Shown piece after piece: positions 1 to 8,594 of a DNA stretch of 8,594 nucleotides. The stretch comes from a virus (lineage: Duplodnaviria; Heunggongvirae; Uroviricota; Caudoviricetes), in the IMG/VR virus record IMGVR_UViG_2740892431_000003. One strand, written 5' to 3'. A program made the position numbers and the translations under genes. The notes beneath the pieces are model-generated. The model did not search any database. It was not told the origin of the DNA and worked only from the letters and a program-made list of their open reading frames with translations. The stretch's first letter is position 1; every line of letters starts with the position of its first letter.

Positions 1-344
1 AAGGGCGCGTGCGCTATCCACTTTTTTGCCCGTCCATATTCAACGGCTTCTTTGAGGAGTTCATTTTCCATCGTTTTCTTGCCGAGCAGGCGCTGGAGTT
101 CTTTAATCTGCTTCATGGCGGCAGCAAGTTCAGAGGCAGGAACAACCTGTTCTCCGGCGGCGACAGCAGTAAGACTTCCTTCCTGGTATTGCTTACGCCA
201 GAGAAATAACTGGCTGGCTGCTACACCATGTTGCCGGGCAACGAGGGAGACCGTCATCCCCGGTTCAAAGCTCTGCTGAACAATTGCGATCTTTTCCTGT
301 GTGGTACGCCGTCTGCGTTTCTCCGGTCCTAAGACATCAATCAT
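1..344 (-). CDS. insC: IS2 transposase OrfA (InsC), first ~114 codons; 3' end lies off-window
   Basis: Minus-strand translation from ATG at 344-342 gives [114 protein letters not shown], which matches IS2 InsC from memory. The ORF track missed it because it runs off the window edge. Confidence 0.85.
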
Positions 345-435
345 CTGCTCTCCAATGACTAGTCTAAAAACTAGTATTAAGACTATCACTTAAATAAGTG
401 ATACTGGTTGTCTGGAGATTCAGGGGGCCAGTCTA
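1..435 (-). mobile_element. IS2 (IS3 family) insertion sequence, partial: terminal inverted repeat plus 5' part of orfA; element continues beyond window start
   Basis: Reverse complement of 395-435 reads TAGACTGGCCCCCTGAATCTCCAGACAACC, matching the IS2 terminus as I recall it; orfA (InsC) starts 90 bp inside. The element boundary at 435/436 coincides with the abrupt start of integrase-like coding sequence. Confidence 0.85.
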
Positions 436-747
436 CAAATCGACAGAACGGTGAAAATAATAAATGAAGATGGTGAGCATATTCAGGGCTTCACCGTACA
501 CGATATGCGCCGTACAGCCAGTACGTTGTTGCATGAGGCTGGTTATCCTTCAGACTGGATTGAAAAGGCTCTGGCACATGAGCAGAAAGGTGTGCGCGCC
601 GTATATAACAAAGCGGAATACGCCAGACAGCGCGCCTACATGTTGCAGCAGTGGGCCGATATGATTGATTCATGGATTGACGGGGAGCATACGGATCTGA
701 TTCCGTTCTCCCCGTCGAAGTTTGAGAAGTGGATGGCGGGGGAATAA
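436..747 (+). pseudogene. int: 3' fragment (C-terminal ~103 aa) of a P4-family tyrosine integrase, truncated by the IS2 insertion
   Basis: In-frame translation from 436 gives QIDRTVKIINEDGEHIQGFTVHDMRRTASTLLHEAGYPSDWIEKALAHEQKGVRAVYNKAEYARQRAYMLQQWADMIDSWIDGEH... This carries the HxxR box and the C-terminal catalytic Tyr region (VRAVYNKAEY) typical of P4/CP4-57-type integrases. The frame is open right up to the IS2 end and has no ATG start (only an internal GTG at 451); ~300 N-terminal codons are missing. Confidence 0.75.
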
Positions 748-750
748 CGT

Positions 751-945
751 TTAATAGTTCTGCTGATTTTCTTCCATCTCTGCTTCTGCTGCCAGTGATT
801 CAATTTTGTTTTCGAATATTGCTGACAGTGTTGCAAATTCAGCATCAGTGACAGCGGGAATTGGAACAAACCTGATCCCGCTGTGTGCAAGCATGTTTGC
901 AGTTTCAAGGCATTTTCTTAAATCTGCTGGTGATGCCCTGTTCAT
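751..945 (-). CDS. hypothetical small protein (64 aa), last gene of the leftward operon
   Basis: ATG at 945-943 overlaps the methyltransferase stop codon (ATGA arrangement), implying translational coupling. Translation MNRASPADLRKCLETANMLAHSGIRFVPIPAVTDAEFATLSAIFENKIESLAAEAEMEENQQNY. Stop at 751-753 is 3 nt from the convergent integrase stop. No recognisable family. Confidence 0.4.
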   Translation of the reverse strand: MNRASPADLRKCLETANMLAHSGIRFVPIPAVTDAEFATLSAIFENKIESLAAEAEMEENQQNY

Positions 946-1592
946 GCAGCACGCTCCCGCCCCTGGATGTCTGTTGGTGACAGCGGAGCATTGCTGAATG
1001 CATTTGTTAATCCGCCAATATCCAACGCGTATCCAGGGTGTAGTTGCACTGCCGGGTCTTCGCACTGATTACCCCAAACATCAAAGCCATGAGACGTCTG
1101 GCGGGCGAACAGTTCAATGCGAGAAACATCGCCTAATAATTGCACAAGTTTTTCACGAACGATATCTGGCTTTCTTGAATGCTCAAGCCGCGGTGCGGTA
1201 AATGACTGAACGATCCCTGCATTAATGCGCGTAGGTAGTTTTCCCTTTACCGCAAACAGGCAATCTTCACTATTGGCGCGAGTCATGTGTCCCATACCCA
1301 TAACCAGTTTATCTGGTTGTCGACTACCACATTTTATCCACGTGAAGCCCTTCATCGTCATCAGACGGAATCCCCAGGCTTCAACAACTTTTAGTGCTTC
1401 GAGTGGTTGTGTTGGCACCCACCACATGGCCAACAGACAGTTTTCATCGGCCAAATCCCACACAGGAAGGCGGCAGATATCCAGCACACTCATAACCGGA
1501 TATTTAAAACCGGCACCGCGATTACCATCTGCGGCTTTGTCCCGGTATACCCAGGGTGGATCTGCATAGATTAGTGTGTATTTCTTAGTCAT
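942..1592 (-). CDS. MT-A70 family DNA N6-adenine methyltransferase (phage orphan methylase)
   Basis: N-terminus MTKKYTLIYADPPWVYRDK...KYPVMSVLDICRLPVWDLADENCLLAMWW has the DPPW catalytic motif and the layout of phage MT-A70/Dam-like methylases. The start could be the ATG at 1592 or the GTG at 1604; the 1592 ATG overlaps the upstream ORF's stop (ATGACTAA). Confidence 0.8.
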   Translation of the reverse strand: MTKKYTLIYADPPWVYRDKAADGNRGAGFKYPVMSVLDICRLPVWDLADENCLLAMWWVPTQPLEALKVVEAWGFRLMTMKGFTWIKCGSRQPDKLVMGMGHMTRANSEDCLFAVKGKLPTRINAGIVQSFTAPRLEHSRKPDIVREKLVQLLGDVSRIELFARQTSHGFDVWGNQCEDPAVQLHPGYALDIGGLTNAFSNAPLSPTDIQGRERAA

Positions 1593-1884
1593 AAACCACC
1601 CCACAACATCCTATGCCGCTATAGTCGCCACGGCGAAGGCCGTTACCTTTTGTGATACATTGGTCCCTGCGAACCGCGATCCTTGCACGTTCAACATCAC
1701 CAGAAGCAACATCCATACACTGAAGCCAAAGGTGAGCGGCAATGCGGAATTGCCCTTTTTTCTCTCTTTCAATCGCGCGTTTTTCGATCTCTATCGCCGC
1801 AGGAGTAACGGCGACAATCTTTGACGGACTGCGCATTGAAACCTTATTCATGTGATATTTTTCAAGTCGGCTTAACTTTCTCAC
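1585..1884 (-). CDS. hypothetical protein (~99 aa; start uncertain, GTG at 1884 or internal ATGs)
   Basis: Minus-strand ORF co-directional with the operon; its stop overlaps the methyltransferase start. The sequence looks protein-like (…KIVAVTPAAIEIEKRAIEREKKGQFRIAAHLWLQ…) but I do not recognise a family. Confidence 0.4.
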   Translation of the reverse strand: MRKLSRLEKYHMNKVSMRSPSKIVAVTPAAIEIEKRAIEREKKGQFRIAAHLWLQCMDVASGDVERARIAVRRDQCITKGNGLRRGDYSGIGCCGVVYD

Positions 1885-1993
1885 TTAATCCAACCCTCTC
1901 TGAAAATTAATGCCAGCAGATAAAGCCATGCTGAAACAGAGGCCAGGAATAAGTACCATCCTGACCATTTGCTCCAGTGCCTTAGCAGCGCAC

Positions 1994-2242
1994 TCATGCA
2001 GCGTTGCTCACGGGACGATATACACGTTGCTGAACAGGAGGCTTTTTACCCTGGAACTCTGCCGGGCTTGCTGCCTGACGTTCATCAAGCCAACGCTCAA
2101 CTTCATCACGGTTCCATGCGCAGCGTTTATCGGTGATATACCAGCGTTTAGGAAATTCCCCTGCGCGCTCCATACGGTCGATAGTGCTCCATGACAGTGG
2201 CACCACCGCCAGGAGTTCTTTCTTACCTAATGCACCTTTCAT
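1994..2242 (-). CDS. AlpA/excisionase-like HTH DNA-binding protein (Phage_AlpA family-like)
   Basis: MKGALGKKELLAVVPLSWSTIDRMERAGEFPKRWYITDKRCAWNRDEVERWLDER fits the AlpA/Xis pattern (L..V..S.STI.R....G.FP......W...EVE.WL). RBS AGAGAGG sits 6 nt upstream of the ATG. Confidence 0.6.
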   Translation of the reverse strand: MKGALGKKELLAVVPLSWSTIDRMERAGEFPKRWYITDKRCAWNRDEVERWLDERQAASPAEFQGKKPPVQQRVYRPVSNAA

Positions 2243-2264
2243 GAATACCTCTCTTGGTTGCAGT

Positions 2265-2283
2265 GCGGCGCACGTGGCGCCGC
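2265..2283 (-). other. GC-rich perfect hairpin (GCGGCGC-acgtg-GCGCCGC) with no U-tract, in the recT-alpA intercistronic space
   Basis: 7-bp all-GC inverted repeat with a 5-nt loop, seen directly. No T-run on either strand, so it is not a canonical intrinsic terminator. Confidence 0.3.
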
Positions 2284-2291
2284 GGTGGTGG

Positions 2292-3314
2292 TTACTCGAA
2301 TTCTGGACGCATATCGTTAAGCGTCATCATGAATTTTTGGTGATATTCATCACCGAGCTTTTCAGCCATGGTGTTAATTTCATTTTCAGCGCGCTTGAAC
2401 ATCGTTTTTGCATCTTCAGCAGATGGATCCAGGCTATTAAGTATCGCGATGATATATTCTCGAGCTTCTTCTCGTTCTGAATCTGAAATTGGCGACAGGT
2501 GTTGACGCTCATCGTCAACTACGGAATATTCACCAGTGATAACAGCTGCGTTATCTTGGCTAAGTCCAGCTTCAGCGCGCTCATCCATAACAACAGCCTT
2601 CTGCATTTCAATAGAAACAGGAAGATATTTGAACAGTCGGCGAATTACTGTTTTTTTAGCCATCTCATCGAAGTGATCAACCCATGGGCCACTGCTACCG
2701 GCTTTGCTCAGTGCACGAACTTTCTCAACGTCTGCCCGGCTCATAACTTCAAATTGGACTCCGCCATCTTTCAGTCGTGCAACGGCGTAAACGTGCGTTA
2801 ATTCTCCGCGGTCACCTGTTTCGCAAGGTAAATGCTCGAGCGTTTCTTCCAGGCCGTATGAGTAGCTGAATTTGTCGTTTGTATGTACGGTACGAGCCGA
2901 GATACTCAGGATCTGCCCAGAGCGGCGGGCAAGGTCAATCATTCCGCGATAGCCGATAATCAGCTGTGCTTCTGTAGATACGGTTTCCCATCTTCCATTT
3001 ACTTTCTGGCGTTTGTCGAACGGTATCAGGTAAGCGTGTCCAAGAGCTCCGCCTGGTTCAAGACCCAATTGGGCACATTGCATAATTGCCCCCAGGAAGC
3101 TGGCTTGGTCGCATGATGCAAGTTTTGGAACCTTTCTGATCTCTGTGGTTGCTATGCGCGCCAGACGGTCTGCTGTCATGTGCTTTGGAAGTGCCAAAGC
3201 CATCTGAGCTTTAATTTTTGGGTCTGCCAGAAGTCCGGCCAGAGTTGTTGGTTTCTCATTATGATGTGCAACTTGGTTACCGGTAGCCGCTGCCTTAAGT
3301 GCATTGATAGACAT
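2292..3314 (-). CDS. recT: RecT-family single-strand annealing protein
   Basis: Strong resemblance to Rac RecT: ...MTADRLARIATTEIRKVPKLASCD...AQLGLEPGGALGHAYLIPF...LIIGYRGMIDLARRSGQI...THVYAVARLKDGGVQFEVMSR...GPWVDHFDEMAKKTVIRRLFKYLPVSIEMQKAV. RBS AGGAGA precedes the ATG. Confidence 0.9.
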   Translation of the reverse strand: MSINALKAAATGNQVAHHNEKPTTLAGLLADPKIKAQMALALPKHMTADRLARIATTEIRKVPKLASCDQASFLGAIMQCAQLGLEPGGALGHAYLIPFDKRQKVNGRWETVSTEAQLIIGYRGMIDLARRSGQILSISARTVHTNDKFSYSYGLEETLEHLPCETGDRGELTHVYAVARLKDGGVQFEVMSRADVEKVRALSKAGSSGPWVDHFDEMAKKTVIRRLFKYLPVSIEMQKAVVMDERAEAGLSQDNAAVITGEYSVVDDERQHLSPISDSEREEAREYIIAILNSLDPSAEDAKTMFKRAENEINTMAEKLGDEYHQKFMMTLNDMRPEFE

Positions 3315-3323
3315 TTTTTCTCC

Positions 3324-4223
3324 TTACTTCATTCTGAAGACGCGTTGTGTCGTTGTTGTTTTGAATTTTTCGAATAACTCAGGGTGTACTGACTGGAATA
3401 GCTTCTGGTCGAATCTGTTGCTGATCTGAGATTTCCATGTGCAGAGCGGCTTTCCGTCCAGGGTCAGGACTGAGTGCTCTTGCATGTACATCTTCAGCTT
3501 CTCTTCTGATATAGCTATTTCTTCTTCCAGTGATTTTCTGCGTGATTTCATGTCTCGTAGATCGTTGAATAGTGCGAGTGCCTTTCCGTCAGCCTCGATA
3601 CTTGTCCCGGCATCTTTCTCAAACATCAGCGATACATCGCTTACGCTGGTAGCTTCCGGCGGGTTAAGATTTTTCACTCGGTCCCAGAAAGCGATTTCTT
3701 TTTCTAAGATCGCCTGGATAGTTTCTTCATCACGCTCAACCCGATAGATTCGGAAGTCGTCGCCACCGATAAGCACACCGAAAACGCATACCTGTTTGTT
3801 TGTAACCATCAACCCGTGCATGGCCTGGGCCGTGTAATGCACAGGAATTGCATCTGTCTGGATTTCTCCCCATTCTTTGGCTTTGAACGGACTAACTGTT
3901 TTGATCTCAATGTTCTCGCCTGACGCTGCTTCTGCATCGATCTCAGCTGCAATAAAATCGTAATCACGGTGGATATAGCGGTTTCCGCGATGAACGATTT
4001 CCATCCCTGTTTCCTCAGAAAGCAGGTCTATTACGTATGGCTCCATACGCTGGCCACGCGTGAAAACTTTCTGCTTGCTTGGGTCTACTGGTTTGACACG
4101 TGGCTGGACCTTATCCAGATAAACCTCAAGCGGGGTGCGCCATGGGCTAATTCCAAGAATCCCTGCAACATCGCTTCCTCCGATGTATTTTGTTCTATCC
4201 ATGATTCCAGCGTTCCGCATCAT
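3324..4223 (-). CDS. YqaJ-like (lambda Exo-like) 5'-3' exonuclease, recombination partner of RecT
   Basis: Sits immediately upstream of recT in the same operon. The N-terminal region (…YIGGSDVAGILGISPWRTPLEVY…, later …YYTAQAMHGLMVTNK…) fits the YqaJ viral recombinase fold. ATGA overlap with the upstream gene's stop; an internal ATG 21 nt downstream is an alternative start. Confidence 0.8.
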   Translation of the reverse strand: MMRNAGIMDRTKYIGGSDVAGILGISPWRTPLEVYLDKVQPRVKPVDPSKQKVFTRGQRMEPYVIDLLSEETGMEIVHRGNRYIHRDYDFIAAEIDAEAASGENIEIKTVSPFKAKEWGEIQTDAIPVHYTAQAMHGLMVTNKQVCVFGVLIGGDDFRIYRVERDEETIQAILEKEIAFWDRVKNLNPPEATSVSDVSLMFEKDAGTSIEADGKALALFNDLRDMKSRRKSLEEEIAISEEKLKMYMQEHSVLTLDGKPLCTWKSQISNRFDQKLFQSVHPELFEKFKTTTTQRVFRMK

Positions 4224-4519
4224 GCCGCGTCCCTCTGCCCATCAAGCTGATCCGCCAGATCCCAGCGCGCTATAATTGCCATTGCCTCGCGCCGGTAGGC
4301 ATCCATCAGTTCTTCGAACTCAGGGCTGTCTTTAGCAGCCTCCAGCACTTCCTGACGAACGCCTTTGCCTGTTACAACGTCGAAAGTTGAGGACAGTTGA
4401 TGAAGTCGGATGCTCTCAATCAGTTCAACTTGTCGGTCATATAGCTGTTCTGACAGGCGGTAGTCCTTGTCGAATGCCAGCATGATTTTTTGAAGATTTT
4501 TCTGCTGATTAACGTTCAT
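4220..4519 (-). CDS. hypothetical protein (100 aa), second gene of the leftward operon
   Basis: Strong RBS GGGAGGG 6 nt upstream of ATG 4519; its stop overlaps the exonuclease start. Translation MNVNQQKNLQKIMLAFDKDYRLSEQLYDRQVELIESIRLHQLSSTFDVVTGKGVRQEVLEAAKDSPEFEELMDAYRREAMAIIARWDLADQLDGQRDAA. No family recognised. Confidence 0.5.
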   Translation of the reverse strand: MNVNQQKNLQKIMLAFDKDYRLSEQLYDRQVELIESIRLHQLSSTFDVVTGKGVRQEVLEAAKDSPEFEELMDAYRREAMAIIARWDLADQLDGQRDAA

Positions 4520-4521
4520 TA

Positions 4522-4674
4522 TCAGCCCTCCCATATCTCGTTATCGTTGGCTACATCGCGAGCTTCTTTGCTGACGAAAGCCCACTTAATGCCTTCCTGT
4601 AAGGTGCGGAACTTCCAGCTCATGAATCCGCATGCAGTAACGCAGTACCAACCGTTGATGATTTTCCACTGCAT
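4522..4674 (-). CDS. small Trp/Cys-rich protein (50 aa), promoter-proximal gene of the leftward operon; absent from the ORF track (below length cutoff)
   Basis: Hand translation: MQWKIINGWYCVTACGFMSWKFRTLQEGIKWAFVSKEARDVANDNEIWEG. RBS GAGGT lies 9 nt upstream of the ATG, and the stop TGA sits 2 nt before the next gene's ATG. It occupies the position of lambda N/cIII/kil-type small early genes. Confidence 0.4.
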   Translation of the reverse strand: MQWKIINGWYCVTACGFMSWKFRTLQEGIKWAFVSKEARDVANDNEIWEG

Positions 4675-4692
4675 AACTTGTTACCTCGGTCT

Positions 4693-4771
4693 GTTACCGT
4701 TGAGGTAATAATTATGCGTATTTGGTTTGATGTCAATAGATATGAGTTAAAAAAATTACCCATTAGGTAAT
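4693..4771 (-). promoter_or_regulatory. Leftward early promoter (pL-like) with two flanking 17-bp palindromic operators (OL)
   Basis: Operators GTTACCgttgaGGTAAT (4693-4709) and ATTACCcattaGGTAAT (4755-4771). On the minus strand a -35 TTGACA (complement of 4731-4736) is followed ~17 bp later by an AT-rich -10 (AATTAT) that overlaps the 4693-4709 operator. Confidence 0.5.
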
Positions 4772-4780
4772 AGTATAGGC

Positions 4781-4805
4781 AATAAAAAAGCCGCCAGAAG
4801 GCGGC
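4781..4805 (-). terminator. Rho-independent terminator downstream of the repressor gene
   Basis: Minus-strand RNA would form GCCGCC-UUCU-GGCGGC followed by UUUUUUAUU (plus strand 4781-4805 reads aataaaaaaGCCGCCagaaGGCGGC). Confidence 0.7.
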
Positions 4806-4827
4806 TTACTTACTGAAAAGTATGATT

Positions 4828-5412
4828 TTATTGTTTGTTTTTTTCGTTCTGGTTGATGACAAATTCAATGTAACTTTCGATCTTTGCTTTCTCGGTTTCG
4901 GGTAACAATGCGTAGCGCGAGCGGTCATAGTTGATGGTCGCAGGGTCGTGCGGGTGAATCAGTAATTCATAGCCGTGACGCCCGAATGCGGATGCAACAT
5001 TCTCCAGGGTGGAAATGGAAACGCTGACCTCATTGTTTAACAGGCGACTGATTGTCACCTGGGCGACGCCGGATGCGCGGTGAAGTTTTCCCTGCGTTGA
5101 AAGGTCGCGGCTTTCGCTCATCCAGCGTTCCAGGTTGTGAGCCGCCAGCTGACCAATGTCGCTTGGGCCGACAGGCTGAAAACCTTCCTGAGAAAGCGAG
5201 CGATCGATATCAAGCCAGTTACGGGGTTTATTGGCGGCAGCTTCAATTTTTCGTGCAACCTGGTCGCCGATAACCTTCTTGCCAAGAGCCCAGCGGTTTA
5301 CCAGATTTGCCTGAGTTCCAAGTTTTTCTGCCATCCGCGTCTGAACACCATTGAATTCACGGTCGATCAAGTCGTTGAGATTTTGCCTGCGGACGTCCTG
5401 GATACTTTTCAT
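4828..5412 (-). CDS. Prophage repressor (CI-like role) with two tandem XRE-type HTH domains and no S24 peptidase domain
   Basis: First HTH roughly …VQTRMAEKLGTQANLVNRWALGKKVIGDQVARKIEAAANKPRNWLD; second roughly …LHRASGVAQVTISRLLNNEVSVSISTLENVASAFG. Placed between the divergent operator-bearing promoters, followed by its own terminator. The C-terminus has no Ser/Lys peptidase motifs. Confidence 0.7.
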   Translation of the reverse strand: MKSIQDVRRQNLNDLIDREFNGVQTRMAEKLGTQANLVNRWALGKKVIGDQVARKIEAAANKPRNWLDIDRSLSQEGFQPVGPSDIGQLAAHNLERWMSESRDLSTQGKLHRASGVAQVTISRLLNNEVSVSISTLENVASAFGRHGYELLIHPHDPATINYDRSRYALLPETEKAKIESYIEFVINQNEKNKQ

Positions 5413-5466
5413 TTTCTGGAAAATCGCCTCATATATGAATCAGTAGATGATTCAATTTAAAGCAAT

Positions 5467-5531
5467 ATTACCCAACAGGTAAATGCACCTCATAGGTAAC
5501 TATCCTTGATTTTTGTTACCTTATGGGTGAA
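5467..5531. promoter_or_regulatory. Immunity-region operators (OR) in the divergent promoter region between the repressor and the Cro-like gene
   Basis: ATTACCcaacaGGTAAA (5467-5483), abutting weaker site TGCACCtcataGGTAAC (5484-5500), and GTTACCttatgGGTGAA (5515-5531). A candidate -35 TTGATT (5505-5510) for the rightward promoter sits just upstream of the third site. Confidence 0.55.
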
Positions 5532-5566
5532 TATTTATTATCTGAAATAAATATCAGGCAATAGCT

Positions 5567-5797
5567 ATGAGCGATAACGGACATTTCGATTTCAAAAAGC
5601 ACTGGCTTGCACTTACTCCGGATGAGCGTGAAGCCTTCGCACAGGAAGCCGGAACGACGAGTCACTATATCCAGACTCACTTAACAGGTAAGCGCAAAAT
5701 GCCAGGTAAGGTATTGATGAATGGGCTTTTTAAAGCCTGTAAAACAAGACAATGGCTGCGCTCAAAAGCAGAACTGGCATACTTCTTCTACTCATGA
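5567..5797 (+). CDS. Cro-like small DNA-binding regulator (putative), first rightward gene
   Basis: 76 aa, divergent from the repressor, immediately downstream of the operator cluster and followed by a terminator. The call is positional plus a weak HTH-like segment (LTPDEREAFAQEAGTTSHYIQTHLTGKR); the family assignment is tentative. Confidence 0.5.
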   Translation: MSDNGHFDFKKHWLALTPDEREAFAQEAGTTSHYIQTHLTGKRKMPGKVLMNGLFKACKTRQWLRSKAELAYFFYS

Positions 5798-5819
5798 TAT
5801 CCAGCTACAACCCTCTGTA

Positions 5820-5844
5820 GACCGCCACCCGGCGGTCTTTTCAT
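5820..5844 (+). terminator. Rho-independent terminator after the Cro-like gene (tR1-like position)
   Basis: GACCGCC-accc-GGCGGTC stem-loop (5820-5837) followed by TTTTCAT. Confidence 0.55.
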
Positions 5845-5947
5845 ATCTATTCGTACCTCAAAGGTAATAAAAAACCAAATCTGGTTGATCTTTTTTTTGT
5901 GTCAGCACAAAATGACCGTAACCCCAATACTAATAGCAGGGCTTACC

Positions 5948-6148
5948 ATGGAAATCATTACACGTATTGATGCCGCAAAGCGCGGACTTAAACGCTACTA
6001 CACCGGAAAACCATGTAAGCATGGACATGACAGTGAACGCTGGGTTTACAACGGACACTGTGTTGAGTGCACCATGGAATCAAACCGTCGCATCAGGGCA
6101 GAGATTAAGCAGATCATGATTAATTCCTCCCCACAACACTCAAGCTGA
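5948..6148 (+). CDS. small putative zinc-binding protein (67 aa) at the cII-equivalent position
   Basis: MEIITRIDAAKRGLKRYYTGKPCKHGHDSERWVYNGHCVECTMESNRRIRAEIKQIMINSSPQHSS carries a C-x-H-x-H … H-C-x2-C cluster. I chose the ATG at 5948 over the upstream ATG at 5912; neither has a strong RBS. Confidence 0.45.
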   Translation: MEIITRIDAAKRGLKRYYTGKPCKHGHDSERWVYNGHCVECTMESNRRIRAEIKQIMINSSPQHSS

Positions 6149-6163
6149 TAGCGGAGATTAATC

Positions 6164-6997
6164 ATGAGCAGACATGCAACAGATTGGGCCTGGGAGACAG
6201 ATCCAGGTAGCTCATCATTAAAGCTCATACTGCTCTCGATGGCTGACAGAGCCGATGAATATAACCTCTGCTACCCCAGCATAGAACGCCTCGTTAAAGA
6301 CACTTGCCTGAATAAAAAAACCGTGCAGGCCGGGCTTATATCGCTCATGAAAATGGGGCTTATTTCAGATACCGGAGAGAGAAAGGGAGCGACAAAAAGA
6401 GTGCGGGTTTTCTCTCTTAATATAACCAAAAACGGGAACATTAAAGGCAACCGGGAGGGGGGCAATGAACCCGAAAACGGTAATGTTACCGAAAACGGGA
6501 ATATACCCAAAAACGGGATGTTGAATGATCCCAAAAACGGGATGTTGAATGATCCCAAAAACGGGATCCAGAACCAGTCATATAACCAGTCATTTAACCA
6601 AGAGAGGGAGAGCAGGACAAAAACCGGGGATTCTGTTCCTCATGACCCCGGCGCAAACAACGCCGTGATGAATAACTTTGTTCCTCCTGGTGGGCCAGGG
6701 CAATTAGGTAAATTTGTCATGCATGAACAATGGCAGCCATCAGATGACTTTCTTCGGAAAAGCTCATTGCAGGGAATCTACCTGGACAGTCTGCCAACGG
6801 CACAGGAACTTGCAGAGTTCAGAATTTACTGGATGGCTGAGGGTAAGGCATACCATCAGGCACAGTGGGAGCAGAAGCTGGCAAGGCGCATCCAGTTCTG
6901 TAGACAGAAATCAGGTGAAGTCAGAAAGAGCCTTGACTGGCATAACACTGACTGGATAGATGAGGTGTGGGATGAAATCAACTCCAGAACTTCTTAA
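6164..6997 (+). CDS. Replication initiation protein (lambda O-like; N-terminal winged-helix DNA-binding domain, low-complexity iteron-encoded linker)
   Basis: N-terminus MSRHATDWAWETDPGSSSLKLILLSMADRADEYNLCYPSIERLVKDTCLNKKTVQAGLISLMKMGLISD is typical of phage replication-initiator HTH domains. It sits directly upstream of, and overlaps, the P-like gene and contains the iteron array. RBS GGAG precedes the ATG. Confidence 0.7.
   Translation: MSRHATDWAWETDPGSSSLKLILLSMADRADEYNLCYPSIERLVKDTCLNKKTVQAGLISLMKMGLISDTGERKGATKRVRVFSLNITKNGNIKGNREGGNEPENGNVTENGNIPKNGMLNDPKNGMLNDPKNGIQNQSYNQSFNQERESRTKTGDSVPHDPGANNAVMNNFVPPGGPGQLGKFVMHEQWQPSDDFLRKSSLQGIYLDSLPTAQELAEFRIYWMAEGKAYHQAQWEQKLARRIQFCRQKSGEVRKSLDWHNTDWIDEVWDEINSRTS
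6425..6571. repeat. Iteron array (putative phage origin of replication) embedded in the O-like gene
   Basis: At least six direct repeats with core (A)CC(C)(A/G)AAAACGG(G/T)A starting near 6426, 6470, 6488, 6506, 6530 and 6554, at 18-24 bp spacing. This includes a perfect 24-bp tandem duplication (6506-6529 and 6530-6553). A second short direct repeat AACCAGTCAT(A/T)T follows at 6572-6600. Confidence 0.6.
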
Positions 6998-7754
6998 TGA
7001 GTACGATCGCTTTCGTGGTGGGCATGACCACTCGACGGCGGTTGCTTCTGCTGACGATGAAAGGGCAAAGAAGGAGCAGGTTGCAAGAATTTTCAACGAA
7101 ATGTTTGTCCAGTTACAGGCTGCATTTCCAGGCAGCATCGCTGCTATCAGCGAGCAAGGAAAGCTAAACGAATTTCGAAAACAATGGATGCTTGCGTTTC
7201 TGGAGAATGGGATCACAACAATGGAACAGGTTAACGCTGGTATGCGCCACGCCCGCGCCAGTGAATCTCCGTTCTGGCCGTCGCCTGGGCAATTCATCAA
7301 GTGGTGCAAAGACAGCAAGATGGTTCTTGGCGTCACCATTGACGATGTGATGGCGGAGTTTCACCGGTACAGCAAGGAAAAAAGTTTATATCCTGGTGGT
7401 CCCGAAAGATTCCCGTGGCGACATCCGGTTATGTACTGGGTCGTATGTGATACCCGCCGTGCAATGTATCAGCGCCAGCTTAGCGAGATTGAGGTTGAGA
7501 AACACGCGCGCAGGCTGCTCGATGATTGGGCGAAAAAGGTGGCTTCCGGACAGCAGATACCCGATCCGGTGATCAGCATACAGGCAAAGCCAGAACCCAT
7601 GAGTACACCTCCGGACACAGGGAGAGACGTTTACCATCCACCAGGGCGAAGTTTCGGGTGCATGCCTAACGCCGCCACCCTTGGGGGAATAACACCGGCG
7701 CAGTGGCTGATGGAGGAATACAGGCGGGGAAAGGCGGCAGGATTTATCAAGTAA
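6972..7754 (+). CDS. Replication protein P-like (DnaB helicase loader, lambda P family)
   Basis: …IFNEMFVQLQAAFPGSIAAI…FRKQWMLAFLENGITTMEQVNAGMRHARASESPFWPSPGQFIKWCKD… closely parallels lambda P as I recall it (ITTMEQVNAGMR, PSPGQF). I chose the ATG at 6972 with RBS GAGGTG upstream; it overlaps the O-like 3' end as in lambda. Confidence 0.85.
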   Translation: MKSTPELLNEYDRFRGGHDHSTAVASADDERAKKEQVARIFNEMFVQLQAAFPGSIAAISEQGKLNEFRKQWMLAFLENGITTMEQVNAGMRHARASESPFWPSPGQFIKWCKDSKMVLGVTIDDVMAEFHRYSKEKSLYPGGPERFPWRHPVMYWVVCDTRRAMYQRQLSEIEVEKHARRLLDDWAKKVASGQQIPDPVISIQAKPEPMSTPPDTGRDVYHPPGRSFGCMPNAATLGGITPAQWLMEEYRRGKAAGFIK

Positions 7755-7759
7755 TACCA

Positions 7760-7779
7760 GCGCGATAGCGCATTTTTTT
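7760..7779 (+). terminator. Possible weak intrinsic terminator after the P-like gene
   Basis: Short GCGC-gata-GCGC hairpin followed by aTTTTTTT. The stem is only 4 bp, so confidence is low. Confidence 0.35.
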
Positions 7780-7790
7780 ACGTCTCGATG

Positions 7791-7869
7791 ATTACCTACT
7801 GGGTAATAAAATATTCTAAAATCTATTGATTTAGTGTCTTATGTGGTTTTTAATTACCTCAGGGGTAAA
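7791..7869 (+). promoter_or_regulatory. Third operator-flanked sigma70-like promoter upstream of the DUF1064-like gene
   Basis: Operators ATTACCtactgGGTAAT (7791-7807) and ATTACCtcaggGGTAAA (7853-7869) bracket -35 TTGATT (7826-7831), a 17-bp spacer and -10 TTTAAT (7849-7854). The downstream operator overlaps the -10 and start region; RBS AGGGG precedes ATG 7872. Confidence 0.5.
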
Positions 7870-7871
7870 TC

Positions 7872-8216
7872 ATGAGAAAACAGATACAGGCTCTTGGTCG
7901 ACTCAAAACAGGCCAGATGAACAAAACAGAATCTGCGTATTGCCAGCACCTTGAGCAGCGTAAACGTGCAGGGGAAATCGCCTGGTATCGGTTCGAGGGT
8001 ATCAAGCTGCGGTTAGCTGATAACACGTTTTATACGCCAGATTTCGCTGTGATGCTCGCCACCGGCGAGATGGAACTGCACGAAGTGAAAGGTTTCTGGA
8101 CCGACGACGCCAGGGTGAAAACCAAAGTCGCCGCAGATCAGTATCCGTTCCGAATCATCGGGGTAACGGTTAAACCAAAGAAAGCAGGTGGCGGCTGGAA
8201 CATCGAAGAGTTCTGA
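7872..8216 (+). CDS. DUF1064-like phage protein with a PD-(D/E)xK nuclease-type motif (putative endonuclease/resolvase-like)
   Basis: …ESAYCQHLEQRKRAGEIAWYRFEGIKLRLADNTFYTPDFAVMLATGEMELHEVKGFW…QYPF resembles the conserved core of small phage DUF1064 proteins (D…E.K signature) as I recall them; not verified by search. Confidence 0.5.
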   Translation: MRKQIQALGRLKTGQMNKTESAYCQHLEQRKRAGEIAWYRFEGIKLRLADNTFYTPDFAVMLATGEMELHEVKGFWTDDARVKTKVAADQYPFRIIGVTVKPKKAGGGWNIEEF

Positions 8217-8277
8217 ATCGACGATCTTTTTAGTTATCAATGTAATCAATAAGTTATGTGGATAAGCGAGGGTAAAG

Positions 8278-8594
8278 ATGGAAAGTAATATCAAAGGGTT
8301 AGTTGCCGCCGGGCATGAGATGGCTTCGGAACTGAAAGCAGAATGTGGTGCCGTTGATATGCGCAGTGTGGCAAAGCTGATCAGCGATTTGGCAACGCAA
8401 CTGGAAGTGCAATTGGTGCGTGCTAATGCGCTGGCATCACTGGAGGCAGAGCCAGTGGCAAAAATTATAGCTCACTACCCATTAGGAATTGACGTAGGCA
8501 AACAAAAGTTCGTACAGGCCATTGGAGAGCTTCCTGACTTTGGAGGACATCTATTCGCCGCTCCACCCGTTCCAGTAGTACCGGAAGAAAAACC
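8278..8594 (+). CDS. hypothetical phage protein, 5' part (ORF runs off the window end)
   Basis: RBS GAGGGT is 5 nt upstream of ATG 8278. The frame stays open to the window end: MESNIKGLVAAGHEMASELKAECGAVDMRSVAKLISDLATQLEVQLVRANALASLEAEPVAKIIAHYPLGIDVGKQKFVQAIGELPDFGGHLFAAPPVPVVPEEKP… No family recognised. Confidence 0.5.
   Translation, partial: MESNIKGLVAAGHEMASELKAECGAVDMRSVAKLISDLATQLEVQLVRANALASLEAEPVAKIIAHYPLGIDVGKQKFVQAIGELPDFGGHLFAAPPVPVVPEEK

What the first reader, a model, noticed from the sequence alone, without database searches (positions are those of the whole stretch)
4693..5531. Immunity region defined by a 17-bp operator ATTACC-N5-GGTAAT
Five perfect TTACC-N5-GGTAA palindromes and at least two near-matches occur in 8.6 kb, all in intergenic promoter regions, where a chance 10-of-10 match at fixed spacing would be expected well under once. 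Two flank the leftward promoter, three cluster between the repressor and the Cro-like gene, and one more near-match (CGTACCtcaaaGGTAAT, 5852-5868) follows the tR1-like terminator. This gives a concrete operator consensus and hence the immunity specificity of this prophage. I cannot say from memory whether it matches a characterised lambdoid immunity type.
Basis: seen in the sequence. Interest (0 to 1): 0.55.

Follow-up and report, generated by a model that had tools for sequence, protein, structure and literature searches.

The report
Known repressor operators of a phiV10-like prophage
The repeated TTACC-N5-GGTAA palindrome is real and is very likely the binding site of the prophage's lysogeny repressor, but the same sites are already annotated in the sister phage epsilon15, so this is a correct, ordinary finding.

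Summary
The window has five perfect TTACC-N5-GGTAA palindromes (0.01 expected), two one-mismatch sites and one positionally conserved two-mismatch site. All eight lie in four intergenic gaps that make up 6.7% of the window.

The window is the early region of a phiV10-like (Uetakevirus, epsilon15-like) E. coli prophage. Its 194-aa repressor is 100% identical to phiV10 gp40 and is homologous to the SPC32H Rep (PDB 5D50). That type of repressor has no self-cleavage domain and is switched off by an antirepressor.

The epsilon15 GenBank record already labels the same 17-bp sites, at matching positions, as repressor-binding.

The motif occurs 13-18 times per genome in five Uetakeviruses of E. coli, Salmonella, Enterobacter and Klebsiella, whose repressors are only 42-100% identical. 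It therefore marks the genus, not one immunity type.

New detail from this work:
- At PL and P3, two operators sit exactly 62 bp apart around the -35 box. This spacing is almost invariant in 85 related sequences and fits binding by a repressor tetramer.

Direct binding has not been tested for this repressor. Novelty: already known. Interest: low.

The parts
4693..4709 (.). OL1, the downstream operator of PL (GTTACCgttgaGGTAAT). It abuts the -10 box and covers the expected transcription start of the leftward promoter.
   Evidence: Perfect 15-mer. Its half-sites are invariant in the alignment of 10 promoter modules. Half-site diversity is 0.005 across 80 sequences that encode the identical repressor.
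4708..4736 (-). PL core promoter: -35 TTGACA at 4736-4731, 17-nt spacer, -10 AATTAT at 4713-4708.
   Evidence: Consensus scan, 10 of 12 matches. TATTGA of the -35 region is invariant in 10 aligned modules. No transcript mapping is available.
4755..4771 (.). OL2, the upstream operator of PL (ATTACCcattaGGTAAT). It lies 19 nt upstream of the -35 box and 62 bp from OL1.
   Evidence: Its half-sites never vary, while its spacer has at least 15 different alleles among contigs encoding the identical repressor. The 62-bp spacing is conserved.
4788..4807 (-). Intrinsic terminator downstream of the repressor gene. It separates the repressor transcript from the PL cassette.
   Evidence: Terminator scan. 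Annotated as a terminator in phiV10.
4828..5412 (-). Lysogeny repressor Rep, 194 aa: an N-terminal HTH DNA-binding domain followed by dimerisation and tetramerisation domains, with no S24 peptidase domain.
   Evidence: 100% identical to phiV10 gp40 and to ZX5 ORF21. Matches PDB 5D50, the SPC32H Rep, at E = 4e-42 over residues 1-190. Pfam finds HTH families only. Overexpressing ZX5 ORF21 abolished free phage and cut holin and endolysin mRNA by 99.97-99.99% (PMC9782041).
5467..5483 (.). ORa (ATTACCcaacaGGTAAA), the operator nearest the repressor gene.
   Evidence: Perfect site. Conserved in five phages. Completely invariant, spacer included, in 80 sequences.
5484..5500 (.). ORb (tGCACCtcataGGTAAc). 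Its left half is degenerate. It lies 17 bp from ORa and 31 bp from ORc.
   Evidence: Two-mismatch site. It aligns with a perfect TTACC-N5-GGTAA site in epsilon15, SPC32H and BUCT711. Its half-site columns are invariant in 80 sequences while its spacer varies.
5506..5511 (+). Proposed -35 box of PR (TTGATT), lying between ORb and ORc.
   Evidence: TTGATTTTT is invariant in five phages. The scan tool instead chose TTGTTA at 5513 with TATTAT at 5536-5541, but that hexamer is not conserved. The assignment is an inference.
5515..5531 (.). ORc (GTTACCttatgGGTGAa), lying inside the PR spacer and -10 region.
   Evidence: One-mismatch site. Conserved in position in five phages. Half-sites are invariant in 80 sequences.
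5567..5797 (+). Cro-like small HTH protein, 76 aa, a probable second binder of the same operators.
   Evidence: Matches phrog_35 'transcriptional repressor' at E = 5.6e-13. It is 58-84% identical across five phages, with the block AGTTSHYIQxHLT invariant. Binding has not been tested.
5819..5838 (+). Intrinsic terminator after the cro-like gene.
   Evidence: Terminator scan. Annotated in phiV10. Conserved in five phages.
5852..5868 (.). Imperfect operator (cGTACCtcaaaGGTAAT) upstream of a conserved promoter for the replication genes.
   Evidence: One-mismatch site. The right half GGTAAT and the ACC of the left half are invariant in five phages. The outer bases of the left half vary among close relatives: GTACC, GCACC or TCACC.
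5885..5913 (+). Proposed promoter for the replication operon: -35 TTGATC at 5885-5890, 17-nt spacer, -10 CAAAAT at 5908-5913.
   Evidence: GGTTGATCTTTTTT and AAAAT are invariant in five phages. The scan tool did not report it. This is an inference from conservation and spacing.
7760..7779 (+). Short GC hairpin plus T-run after the P-like replication gene, which opens the P3 cassette.
   Evidence: The homologous site in phiV10 is annotated as a rho-independent terminator. GC...GC followed by TTTTTTT is conserved in the aligned P3 modules. It falls below the scan tool's stem threshold.
7791..7807 (.). Upstream operator of P3 (ATTACCtactgGGTAAT), 19 nt upstream of the -35 box.
   Evidence: Perfect site. 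It aligns with the epsilon15 site 35906-35922, which is annotated 'repressor'. Close relatives carry dozens of spacer alleles with invariant TTACC/GGTAA 5-mers; only the flanking 17-mer bases vary.
7826..7854 (+). Proposed P3 promoter: -35 TTGATT at 7826-7831, 17-nt spacer, -10 TTTAAT at 7849-7854.
   Evidence: It has the same geometry as PL, and TATTGA is invariant in 10 aligned modules. The scan tool did not report it, because the second base of the -10 box is T. This is an inference.
7853..7869 (.). Downstream operator of P3 (ATTACCtcaggGGTAAA). It abuts the -10 box. Its right half appears to serve as the ribosome-binding site, with the ATG 4 nt further on.
   Evidence: Perfect site. It lies 62 bp from the upstream operator. 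Alignment.
7872..8216 (+). First gene of the P3 unit: a DUF1064 protein, probably a Holliday-junction resolvase.
   Evidence: Pfam PF06356. phrog_190 at E = 6e-43.

Best explanation
The TTACC-N5-GGTAA palindromes are the operators of the prophage's lysogeny repressor Rep (4828-5412, minus strand).

Rep is an SPC32H/epsilon15-type repressor: an N-terminal HTH DNA-binding domain, a middle dimerisation domain and a C-terminal tetramerisation domain. Two N-terminal domains contact the two half-sites, which lie one helical turn apart.

The early region is built from four promoter-operator cassettes (three of which, PL, PR2 and P3, follow a terminator):
- PL and P3 each have an upstream operator 19 nt before the -35 box and a downstream operator abutting the -10 box, 62 bp apart (about six helical turns).
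- PR has three operators, and the -35 box lies between two of them that are 31 bp apart (about three turns).
- The promoter after the cro-like terminator has one imperfect upstream operator.

I infer that one Rep tetramer holds both operators of a pair, wraps or bends the promoter between them, and blocks RNA polymerase.

In complete relatives, further single or paired sites sit at the terminase, portal, tail-fibre, lysis and integrase promoters. Rep therefore silences every transcription unit directly, rather than through a lambda-style antitermination cascade. Induction works through a LexA-controlled antirepressor encoded outside the window, not through RecA-driven cleavage.

What is shown here: the motif, its enrichment, its placement, its conservation and the homology of Rep.
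What is inferred: that Rep binds these sites in this phage, the promoter assignments, and tetramer bridging.
For: Enrichment:
- Five perfect sites against 0.01 expected.
- It is the only multi-copy 5-mer palindrome in the window.
- The 19-kb host flank of a related prophage has no perfect site, while the roughly 29 kb of that prophage held in the locus has 11 sites with at most one mismatch.

Prior annotation: epsilon15 GenBank AY150271 marks 17-bp 'protein_bind: repressor / lysogeny' features at 12, 2931, 19895, 32479, 32554, 32616 and 35906. These coincide exactly with motif hits.

Conservation across phages:
- There are 13-18 sites per genome in phiV10, epsilon15, SPC32H, Tyrion and BUCT711, against fewer than 1 expected in each.
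- In alignments of PL/P3, OR and the post-terminator region, the half-sites and -35 boxes are largely invariant while most other columns vary.

Conservation within the population (80 sequences encoding the identical Rep):
- half-site diversity 0.0095
- other intergenic columns 0.0475
- third codon positions of the repressor gene 0.051
- operator spacers 0.103

The repressor:
- Homologous to the SPC32H Rep structure 5D50.
- The NLVNRW motif in its N-terminal domain is invariant.
- Rep is described as binding palindromic DNA as a tetramer, and Ant as breaking the tetramer into dimers (PMC9638917). The domain layout is from PMC9986798.
- The identical protein represses lytic genes in phage ZX5 (PMC9782041).

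Geometry: operator pairs are 62 bp apart in 152 of 155 close site pairs (62 bp or within 1 bp of it) among the IMG/VR contigs and in 11 of 12 in the reference phages.
Against: - No binding experiment for this repressor or these sites was available to me. The epsilon15 features are probably bioinformatic predictions.
- The three papers most likely to hold direct evidence were not held: Kropinski 2007, Kim & Ryu 2013 and Kim 2016.
- The cro-like protein is even better conserved than Rep and also has an invariant HTH. Conservation of the half-sites alone cannot tell which protein reads them.
- Several late-region sites are single, which does not obviously fit a two-operator tetramer.
- A 62-bp loop is very tight, and bridging is unproven.
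- Promoter positions rest on consensus and conservation. For PR, the scan tool preferred a different hexamer.
Confidence: 0.8

Rival explanations
1. The palindromes are read mainly by the cro-like protein (5567-5797), not by Rep. Rep would recognise something else.
For: The cro-like protein is 58-84% identical across the five phages and has an invariant HTH block. That matches the invariance of the half-sites better than Rep does, at 43-78% identity. PHROGs files it as a transcriptional repressor.
Against: - No other repeated motif is available for Rep in the conserved intergenic regions.
- Sites lie at late, lysis and integrase promoters, which must be silent in a lysogen. That is the repressor's job, not Cro's.
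- The epsilon15 annotators assigned the sites to the repressor.
- Rep's N-terminal NLVNRW motif is invariant.
- By analogy with lambda, P22 and 434 (my own knowledge), both proteins most likely share the sites.
Confidence: 0.1
2. The sites bind a different factor, either another phage regulator (the PerC-like or AlpA-like proteins of the left operon) or a host protein.
For: The window encodes other putative regulators. No binding data were seen.
Against: - Three sites fill the divergent gap between the repressor and the cro-like gene, which is the classic switch position.
- The sites overlap the -10 and start regions, so they are placed for repression, not activation.
- The motif is absent from the host flank.
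- It tracks the presence of Rep in all five genomes.
Confidence: 0.04
3. The repeats are leftovers of duplicated terminator-promoter cassettes, or small hairpins, with no protein-binding role.
For: The PL and P3 cassettes align with each other, which suggests a common origin. The palindromes could form 5-bp hairpins.
Against: - The half-sites are about five times less variable than neighbouring intergenic and synonymous positions, while the spacers vary freely. That pattern means selection on the half-sites themselves, not shared ancestry.
- A 5-bp stem with a 5-nt loop is too weak to matter as RNA or DNA structure.
- No Rfam family matches the window.
Confidence: 0.03

Closest known systems
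Repressor-binding sites of Salmonella phage epsilon15 (GenBank AY150271; Kropinski et al. 2007, paper not held)
   Same: The same TTACC-N5-GGTAA core and the same 17-bp feature length. The positions match: the PL region, the upstream operator of P3, and sites upstream of terminase, portal and tailspike. The gene order is the same.
   Different: - The repressor is only 42% identical.
- epsilon15 has a third PL-side site 76 bp further on, and AT-rich spacers.
- Its ORb is perfect, whereas here the left half is GCACC.
- The epsilon15 record does not annotate the three OR sites or the downstream operator of P3, both of which the scan finds.
SPC32H Rep-Ant switch (PDB 5D50 and 5D4Z; Kim & Ryu 2013 and Kim et al. 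2016, papers not held, summarised in PMC9638917 and PMC9986798)
   Same: - The repressor is homologous over its full length.
- The motif set is the same in the SPC32H genome.
- phiV10 encodes an Ant homologue that is 88% identical.
- Rep binds palindromic DNA as a tetramer.
   Different: The antirepressor gene lies outside this window. Rep here shares only about 33% identity in the dimerisation domain and 49% in the tetramerisation domain. Tetramer formation and Ant sensitivity of this protein have not been tested.
Lambda, P22 and 434 CI/Cro with tripartite OL and OR operators
   Same: Divergent repressor and cro-like genes lie around three palindromic operators that overlap the rightward promoter. 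The leftward promoter has its own operators. Half-sites lie one helical turn apart.
   Different: - There is no S24 self-cleavage domain.
- PL has two operators 62 bp apart around the -35 box, not three adjacent ones.
- Extra operator-controlled promoters follow terminators, instead of N-type antitermination.
- Operators are also scattered over the late region.
Phage P1 C1 repressor regulon (my own knowledge, not checked here)
   Same: One repressor has many operators spread over the genome at separate promoters, and it is inactivated by antirepressor proteins.
   Different: P1 operators are asymmetric 17-mers, and C1 is unrelated in sequence.
Mycobacteriophage stoperators (abstract of PMC9283540, seen)
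   Same: Many repressor sites are distributed across the phage genome.
   Different: Stoperators are asymmetric, are bound by a monomer and stop elongation. The sites here are symmetric and sit at promoters.

Membership tests
Uetakevirus (epsilon15/phiV10/SPC32H) Rep-operator system | A repressor homologous to SPC32H Rep over its full length, with an N-terminal DNA-binding domain plus dimerisation and tetramerisation domains. | tested here: met
   PDB 5D50 at E = 4e-42 over residues 1-190. 100% identical to phiV10 gp40. Domain layout from PMC9986798.
Uetakevirus (epsilon15/phiV10/SPC32H) Rep-operator system | TTACC-N5-GGTAA boxes at positions matching the sites annotated as repressor-binding in epsilon15. 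| tested here: met
   Alignments.
Uetakevirus (epsilon15/phiV10/SPC32H) Rep-operator system | Gene order: recombination genes, PL, repressor, divergent cro-like gene, replication genes, resolvase. | tested here: met
   98-99% nucleotide identity to phiV10-type phages and prophages. Annotation tables.
Uetakevirus (epsilon15/phiV10/SPC32H) Rep-operator system | A LexA-controlled small antirepressor (Ant) that inactivates Rep. | not testable with these tools
   The gene lies outside the window. phiV10 gp24 is 88% identical to SPC32H Ant. The interaction with this Rep has not been tested.
Uetakevirus (epsilon15/phiV10/SPC32H) Rep-operator system | Direct, sequence-specific binding of Rep to the palindromes. 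| not testable with these tools
   This needs EMSA, footprinting or ChIP. The primary papers were not held.
Lambdoid CI/Cro immunity (lambda, 434, P22, HK022, 933W) | A repressor with a C-terminal LexA-like S24 autocleavage domain. | tested here: not met
   Pfam finds only HTH families. The C-terminal half aligns with the SPC32H Rep dimerisation and tetramerisation domains.
Lambdoid CI/Cro immunity (lambda, 434, P22, HK022, 933W) | Three adjacent operators at both OL and OR. | tested here: inconclusive
   OR has three sites (5468, 5485, 5516). PL has two, 62 bp apart.
Lambdoid CI/Cro immunity (lambda, 434, P22, HK022, 933W) | Delayed-early expression by N-type antitermination through tR1. | tested here: inconclusive
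   No N-like gene was recognised. Instead, conserved promoters with their own operators follow each terminator. Promoter activity has not been tested.

The most novel reading that the evidence does not exclude
The near-invariant 62-bp (six-turn) operator pairs around the -35 box at PL and P3, and the 31-bp (three-turn) pair at PR, could be the DNA counterpart of the 'trans' Rep tetramer. One tetramer would clamp two operators into a micro-loop, and Ant would release both at once by splitting the tetramer.

In addition, all Uetakeviruses of E. coli, Salmonella, Enterobacter and Klebsiella share one operator code, a conserved Ant (88% identical) and a conserved Cro-like protein. They may therefore be mutually immune and co-inducible despite repressors that are only 42% identical. 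In that case the rapid divergence of the repressor would be driven by something other than operator or antirepressor specificity.
Probability: 0.3. Interest if true: 0.4.

Novelty: already known. Interest (0 to 1): 0.2.

Why it matters
The result gives a sound operator map for a common E. coli prophage type integrated next to guaA. This includes phiV10, the O157 typing phages 9 and 10, and ZX5. Neither the phiV10 GenBank record nor the ZX5 paper annotates operators.

It also warns against reading the consensus as an immunity type, because the code is shared across the genus.

The conserved 62-bp operator geometry is a cheap, testable prediction about how the structurally unusual Rep tetramer engages promoters. 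One review of the structure says this mechanism 'has not been extensively characterized' (PMC9986798).

Beyond that, the finding is ordinary.

Tried and rejected
- Tried to read Kropinski 2007 (PMC2698709, PMID 17825342), Kim & Ryu 2013 (PMC3807360, DOI) and Kim 2016 (PMC4983836, DOI). None is held.
- Full-text searches for ATTACC/GGTAAT with 'operator', for SPC32H with 'operator', and for Uetakevirus with 'repressor' found no paper that defines the operator.
- I supposed that the divergence of Rep's C-terminal half tracks a different antirepressor. Rejected: the Ant homologue is 88% identical between phiV10 and SPC32H.
- I supposed that the very polymorphic spacers of the upstream operators mean local hypermutation. 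This is not needed. The mean spacer diversity (0.10) is about twice that of the other intergenic columns and third codon positions, and equals that of the gp38-like gene's third positions, although the OL2 spacer (0.27) is about five times higher. Spacers that overlap promoter elements are not variable.
- I looked for weak partner sites within 110 bp of the single late-region sites in phiV10. None was found.
- A possible half-site abutting the -10 box of the post-terminator promoter is TTACC in epsilon15 but TGACC or TAACC in phiV10-type sequences. I do not count it.
- The scan tool's PR promoter (TTGTTA at 5513) is not conserved. I prefer the invariant TTGATT at 5506.
- Rfam found no RNA family in the window.
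- The first IMG/VR scan returned only contigs with an identical Rep. It was useful for population variation but not for finding more distant relatives.
Full report
**1. The observation**

An exact search finds five TTACC-N5-GGTAA palindromes, at 4694, 4756, 5468, 7792 and 7854. Shuffles of the window give a mean of 0.01, and none of 200 reaches five.

Allowing mismatches adds 5516 and 5853 (one mismatch each) and 5485, 5677 and 293 (two each), against about 2.5 expected at that stringency. I enumerated all 5-mer inverted repeats with spacers of 0-12 nt. TTACC/N5 is the only one present more than twice.

The five perfect sites, the two one-mismatch sites and 5485 all lie in four gaps between genes: 4675-4827, 5413-5566, 5798-5947 and 7755-7871. 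These gaps total 574 bp, or 6.7% of the window.

The cluster between the repressor and the cro-like gene is one perfect site plus two degenerate ones.

**2. What the window is**

- Positions 4400-6200 are 98-99% identical to phiV10, O157 typing phages 9 and 10, ZX5 and related phages of the genus Uetakevirus, the epsilon15-like podoviruses.
- Positions 439-8435 match prophages in 74 complete E. coli genomes. In strain fS10a the prophage lies next to guaA.
- Positions 1-438 are the end of an IS2 element that has cut off the integrase gene.

The repressor (4828-5412, minus strand, 194 aa) is 100% identical to phiV10 gp40 and ZX5 ORF21.
- Pfam finds only HTH domains and no S24 peptidase domain.
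- It matches the crystal structure of the SPC32H Rep over its whole length (5D50, E = 4e-42).
- According to papers that summarise the SPC32H work, Rep has an N-terminal DNA-binding domain, a middle dimerisation domain and a C-terminal tetramerisation domain. It binds palindromic DNA as a tetramer whose DNA-binding pairs come from different dimers, and the tetrameric antirepressor Ant splits it into dimers (PMC9638917; PMC9986798).
- In phage ZX5, overexpressing the identical protein abolished free phage and cut holin and endolysin transcripts by 99.97-99.99% (PMC9782041). That paper defines no operator.

**3. The motif is already annotated in the sister phage**

The GenBank record of epsilon15 (AY150271) carries seven 'protein_bind: repressor, lysogeny' features. 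Each coincides with a TTACC-N5-GGTAA hit, extended by one base on each side in most cases.

The scan finds further unannotated sites in epsilon15. These include three between the repressor gene and gene 39, and a partner for the site upstream of the resolvase gene.

**4. The motif belongs to the genus, not to one immunity type**

Sites with at most one mismatch number 14 in phiV10, 15 in epsilon15, 18 in SPC32H, 15 in Enterobacter phage Tyrion and 13 in Klebsiella phage BUCT711. Fewer than one is expected in each.

These repressors are 78%, 42-43% and 44-45% identical to the one in the window. The N-terminal domain is 53-90% identical, and the NLVNRW motif in its HTH is invariant.

The cro-like protein is 58-84% identical, also with an invariant HTH. 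The antirepressor homologue is 88% identical between phiV10 and SPC32H.

So the DNA code and both partners of Rep are conserved, while Rep itself diverges. The consensus alone cannot define 'the immunity specificity of this prophage'.

**5. Evidence that the half-sites are under selection**

*Between phages.* In alignments of the OR region, of ten PL and P3 modules and of the region after the cro-like terminator, the half-sites and the -35 boxes are largely invariant (only the outer bases of the degenerate halves differ), while most other columns, including the spacers, vary.

*Within the population.* The comparison uses 80 sequences encoding the identical Rep: 79 of the 80 IMG/VR contigs fetched, plus the window.

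| Column class | Nucleotide diversity |
|---|---|
| Half-site columns | 0.0095 |
| Other intergenic columns | 0.0475 |
| Repressor gene, third codon positions | 0.051 |
| Operator spacers | 0.103 |

The spacer of the upstream PL operator alone has at least 15 different alleles between unchanged half-sites.

*Host DNA.* The 19-kb host flank of the fS10a prophage has no perfect site and a single one-mismatch site inside pbpC. The roughly 29 kb of that prophage held in the locus has 11 sites.

**6. Anatomy of the promoter-operator cassettes**

*PL.* The scan finds a strong leftward promoter, TTGACA-17-AATTAT, at 4736-4708. The downstream operator (4694-4708) starts at the last base of the -10 box. 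The upstream operator (4756-4770) ends 19 nt before the -35 box. The terminator of the repressor gene precedes the cassette.

*P3 (7760-7869).* This cassette has the same layout base for base: hairpin plus T-run, upstream operator, 19 nt, TTGATT, 17 nt, TTTAAT, then a downstream operator sharing the last T of the -10 box. The ATG of the DUF1064 gene follows 4 nt after the operator.

*Spacing.* The two operators are 62 bp apart in both cassettes. The same is true in all five reference phages, apart from one case of 63 bp, and in 152 of 155 close site pairs (62 bp or within 1 bp of it) among the IMG/VR contigs.

*PR.* An invariant TTGATT (5506-5511) lies between ORb and ORc, which are 31 bp apart. 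ORa abuts ORb at 17 bp.

*After the cro-like terminator.* All five phages have an imperfect operator (5853-5867; the right half GGTAAT is invariant). It is followed, 17 nt later, by an invariant GGTTGATCTTTTTT and then a -10-like CAAAAT. This is probably the promoter of the replication genes.

*Late region.* In complete relatives, further sites precede the terminase, portal, tail-fibre, lysis and integrase genes.

**7. Mechanism**

The best reading is that Rep binds each palindrome through a pair of N-terminal domains. A tetramer would occupy two operators set an integral number of helical turns apart (62 bp is about six turns, 31 bp about three). That would enclose the -35 box, cover the -10 and start region, and so exclude RNA polymerase.

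Each transcription unit has its own operator-controlled promoter, so no antitermination cascade is needed. Induction would follow LexA-controlled synthesis of Ant, not repressor cleavage.

The homology, placement and conservation are shown here. Binding by this Rep, the promoter assignments and tetramer bridging are inferences. The cro-like protein probably shares the OR sites, as in lambda, and I cannot separate its contribution.

**8. Comparison and novelty**

The system is a member of the epsilon15/phiV10/SPC32H Rep-operator family on every feature I could test. It fails the defining lambdoid feature of a self-cleaving CI.

The motif, its length and its assignment to the repressor are already in a public record of the sister phage, and this repressor is identical to that of a sequenced, studied phage. 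The finding is therefore already known.

What may be new is modest:
- an explicit operator map for the phiV10 type;
- the four-cassette organisation;
- the near-invariant 62-bp pairing;
- the observation that the operator code is shared across hosts and across repressors only 42% identical.

I could not check whether the primary papers already say this.

**9. Verdict**

Novelty is 'already known' and interest is low (0.2).

Noticed in passing
window 1-438 and 451-747: The left end of the window is an IS2 end. Its InsC/TnpA reading frame runs on the minus strand from 344 (NCBIfam NF006928, 259 bits). The IS2 has cut the prophage integrase down to its last 98 codons. Intact relatives carry a full integrase next to guaA. 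This prophage copy is probably unable to excise, although its immunity region is intact.
   Followed up: partly
window 6469-6600: Direct repeats lie inside the DnaT-like replication gene: an 18-bp unit x2.8, a 24-bp unit x2.6 (100% identical) and a 12-bp unit x2.4. They look like iterons of a replication origin embedded in the initiator gene, as in lambda gene O.
   Followed up: no
window 4761-4765 and 7797-7801; IMG/VR loci L008-L087: The 5-nt spacers of the two upstream operators are very polymorphic among contigs encoding the identical repressor. The PL upstream operator has at least 15 alleles and diversity up to 0.53 per column, while the flanking half-sites never change. The ORa spacer is completely invariant. 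Lack of constraint probably explains this, but the contrast is striking.
   Followed up: partly
phiV10 L003 20543-20800; SPC32H L004 19676-19936; alignments A3 and A4: Rep is the fastest-evolving part of the switch, at 42% identity between phiV10 and SPC32H. The antirepressor homologue is 88% identical, the cro-like protein 76%, and the operator half-sites identical. What drives the repressor's divergence is unexplained.
   Followed up: partly
phiV10 L003 41-715; Tyrion L005 34059-34271: Two annotations look wrong. The annotated start of the phiV10 small terminase gene (41) would place the operator pair at 87/105 inside the gene, whereas in epsilon15 and Tyrion the same pair lies upstream of the start. 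Tyrion gp39 is an ORF drawn across the PL operators and promoter.
   Followed up: no
window 2292-4223: The recombination module here is a separate RecT plus a YqaJ-type exonuclease, as in epsilon15. In phiV10 it is annotated as a fused RecET. So the left operon is mosaic relative to phiV10, although the immunity region is 98% identical.
   Followed up: no
L007 19002-19016; phiV10 26870; epsilon15 26882; SPC32H 26960; Tyrion 28568: A conserved one-mismatch site (TTACC-N5-GGTAT) lies about 40-57 bp upstream of the integrase start in five of the six genomes examined; BUCT711 has a mirror-image one-mismatch site at the same place. This suggests the repressor also controls integrase expression. That region is lost from this window because of the IS2 insertion.
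   Followed up: no
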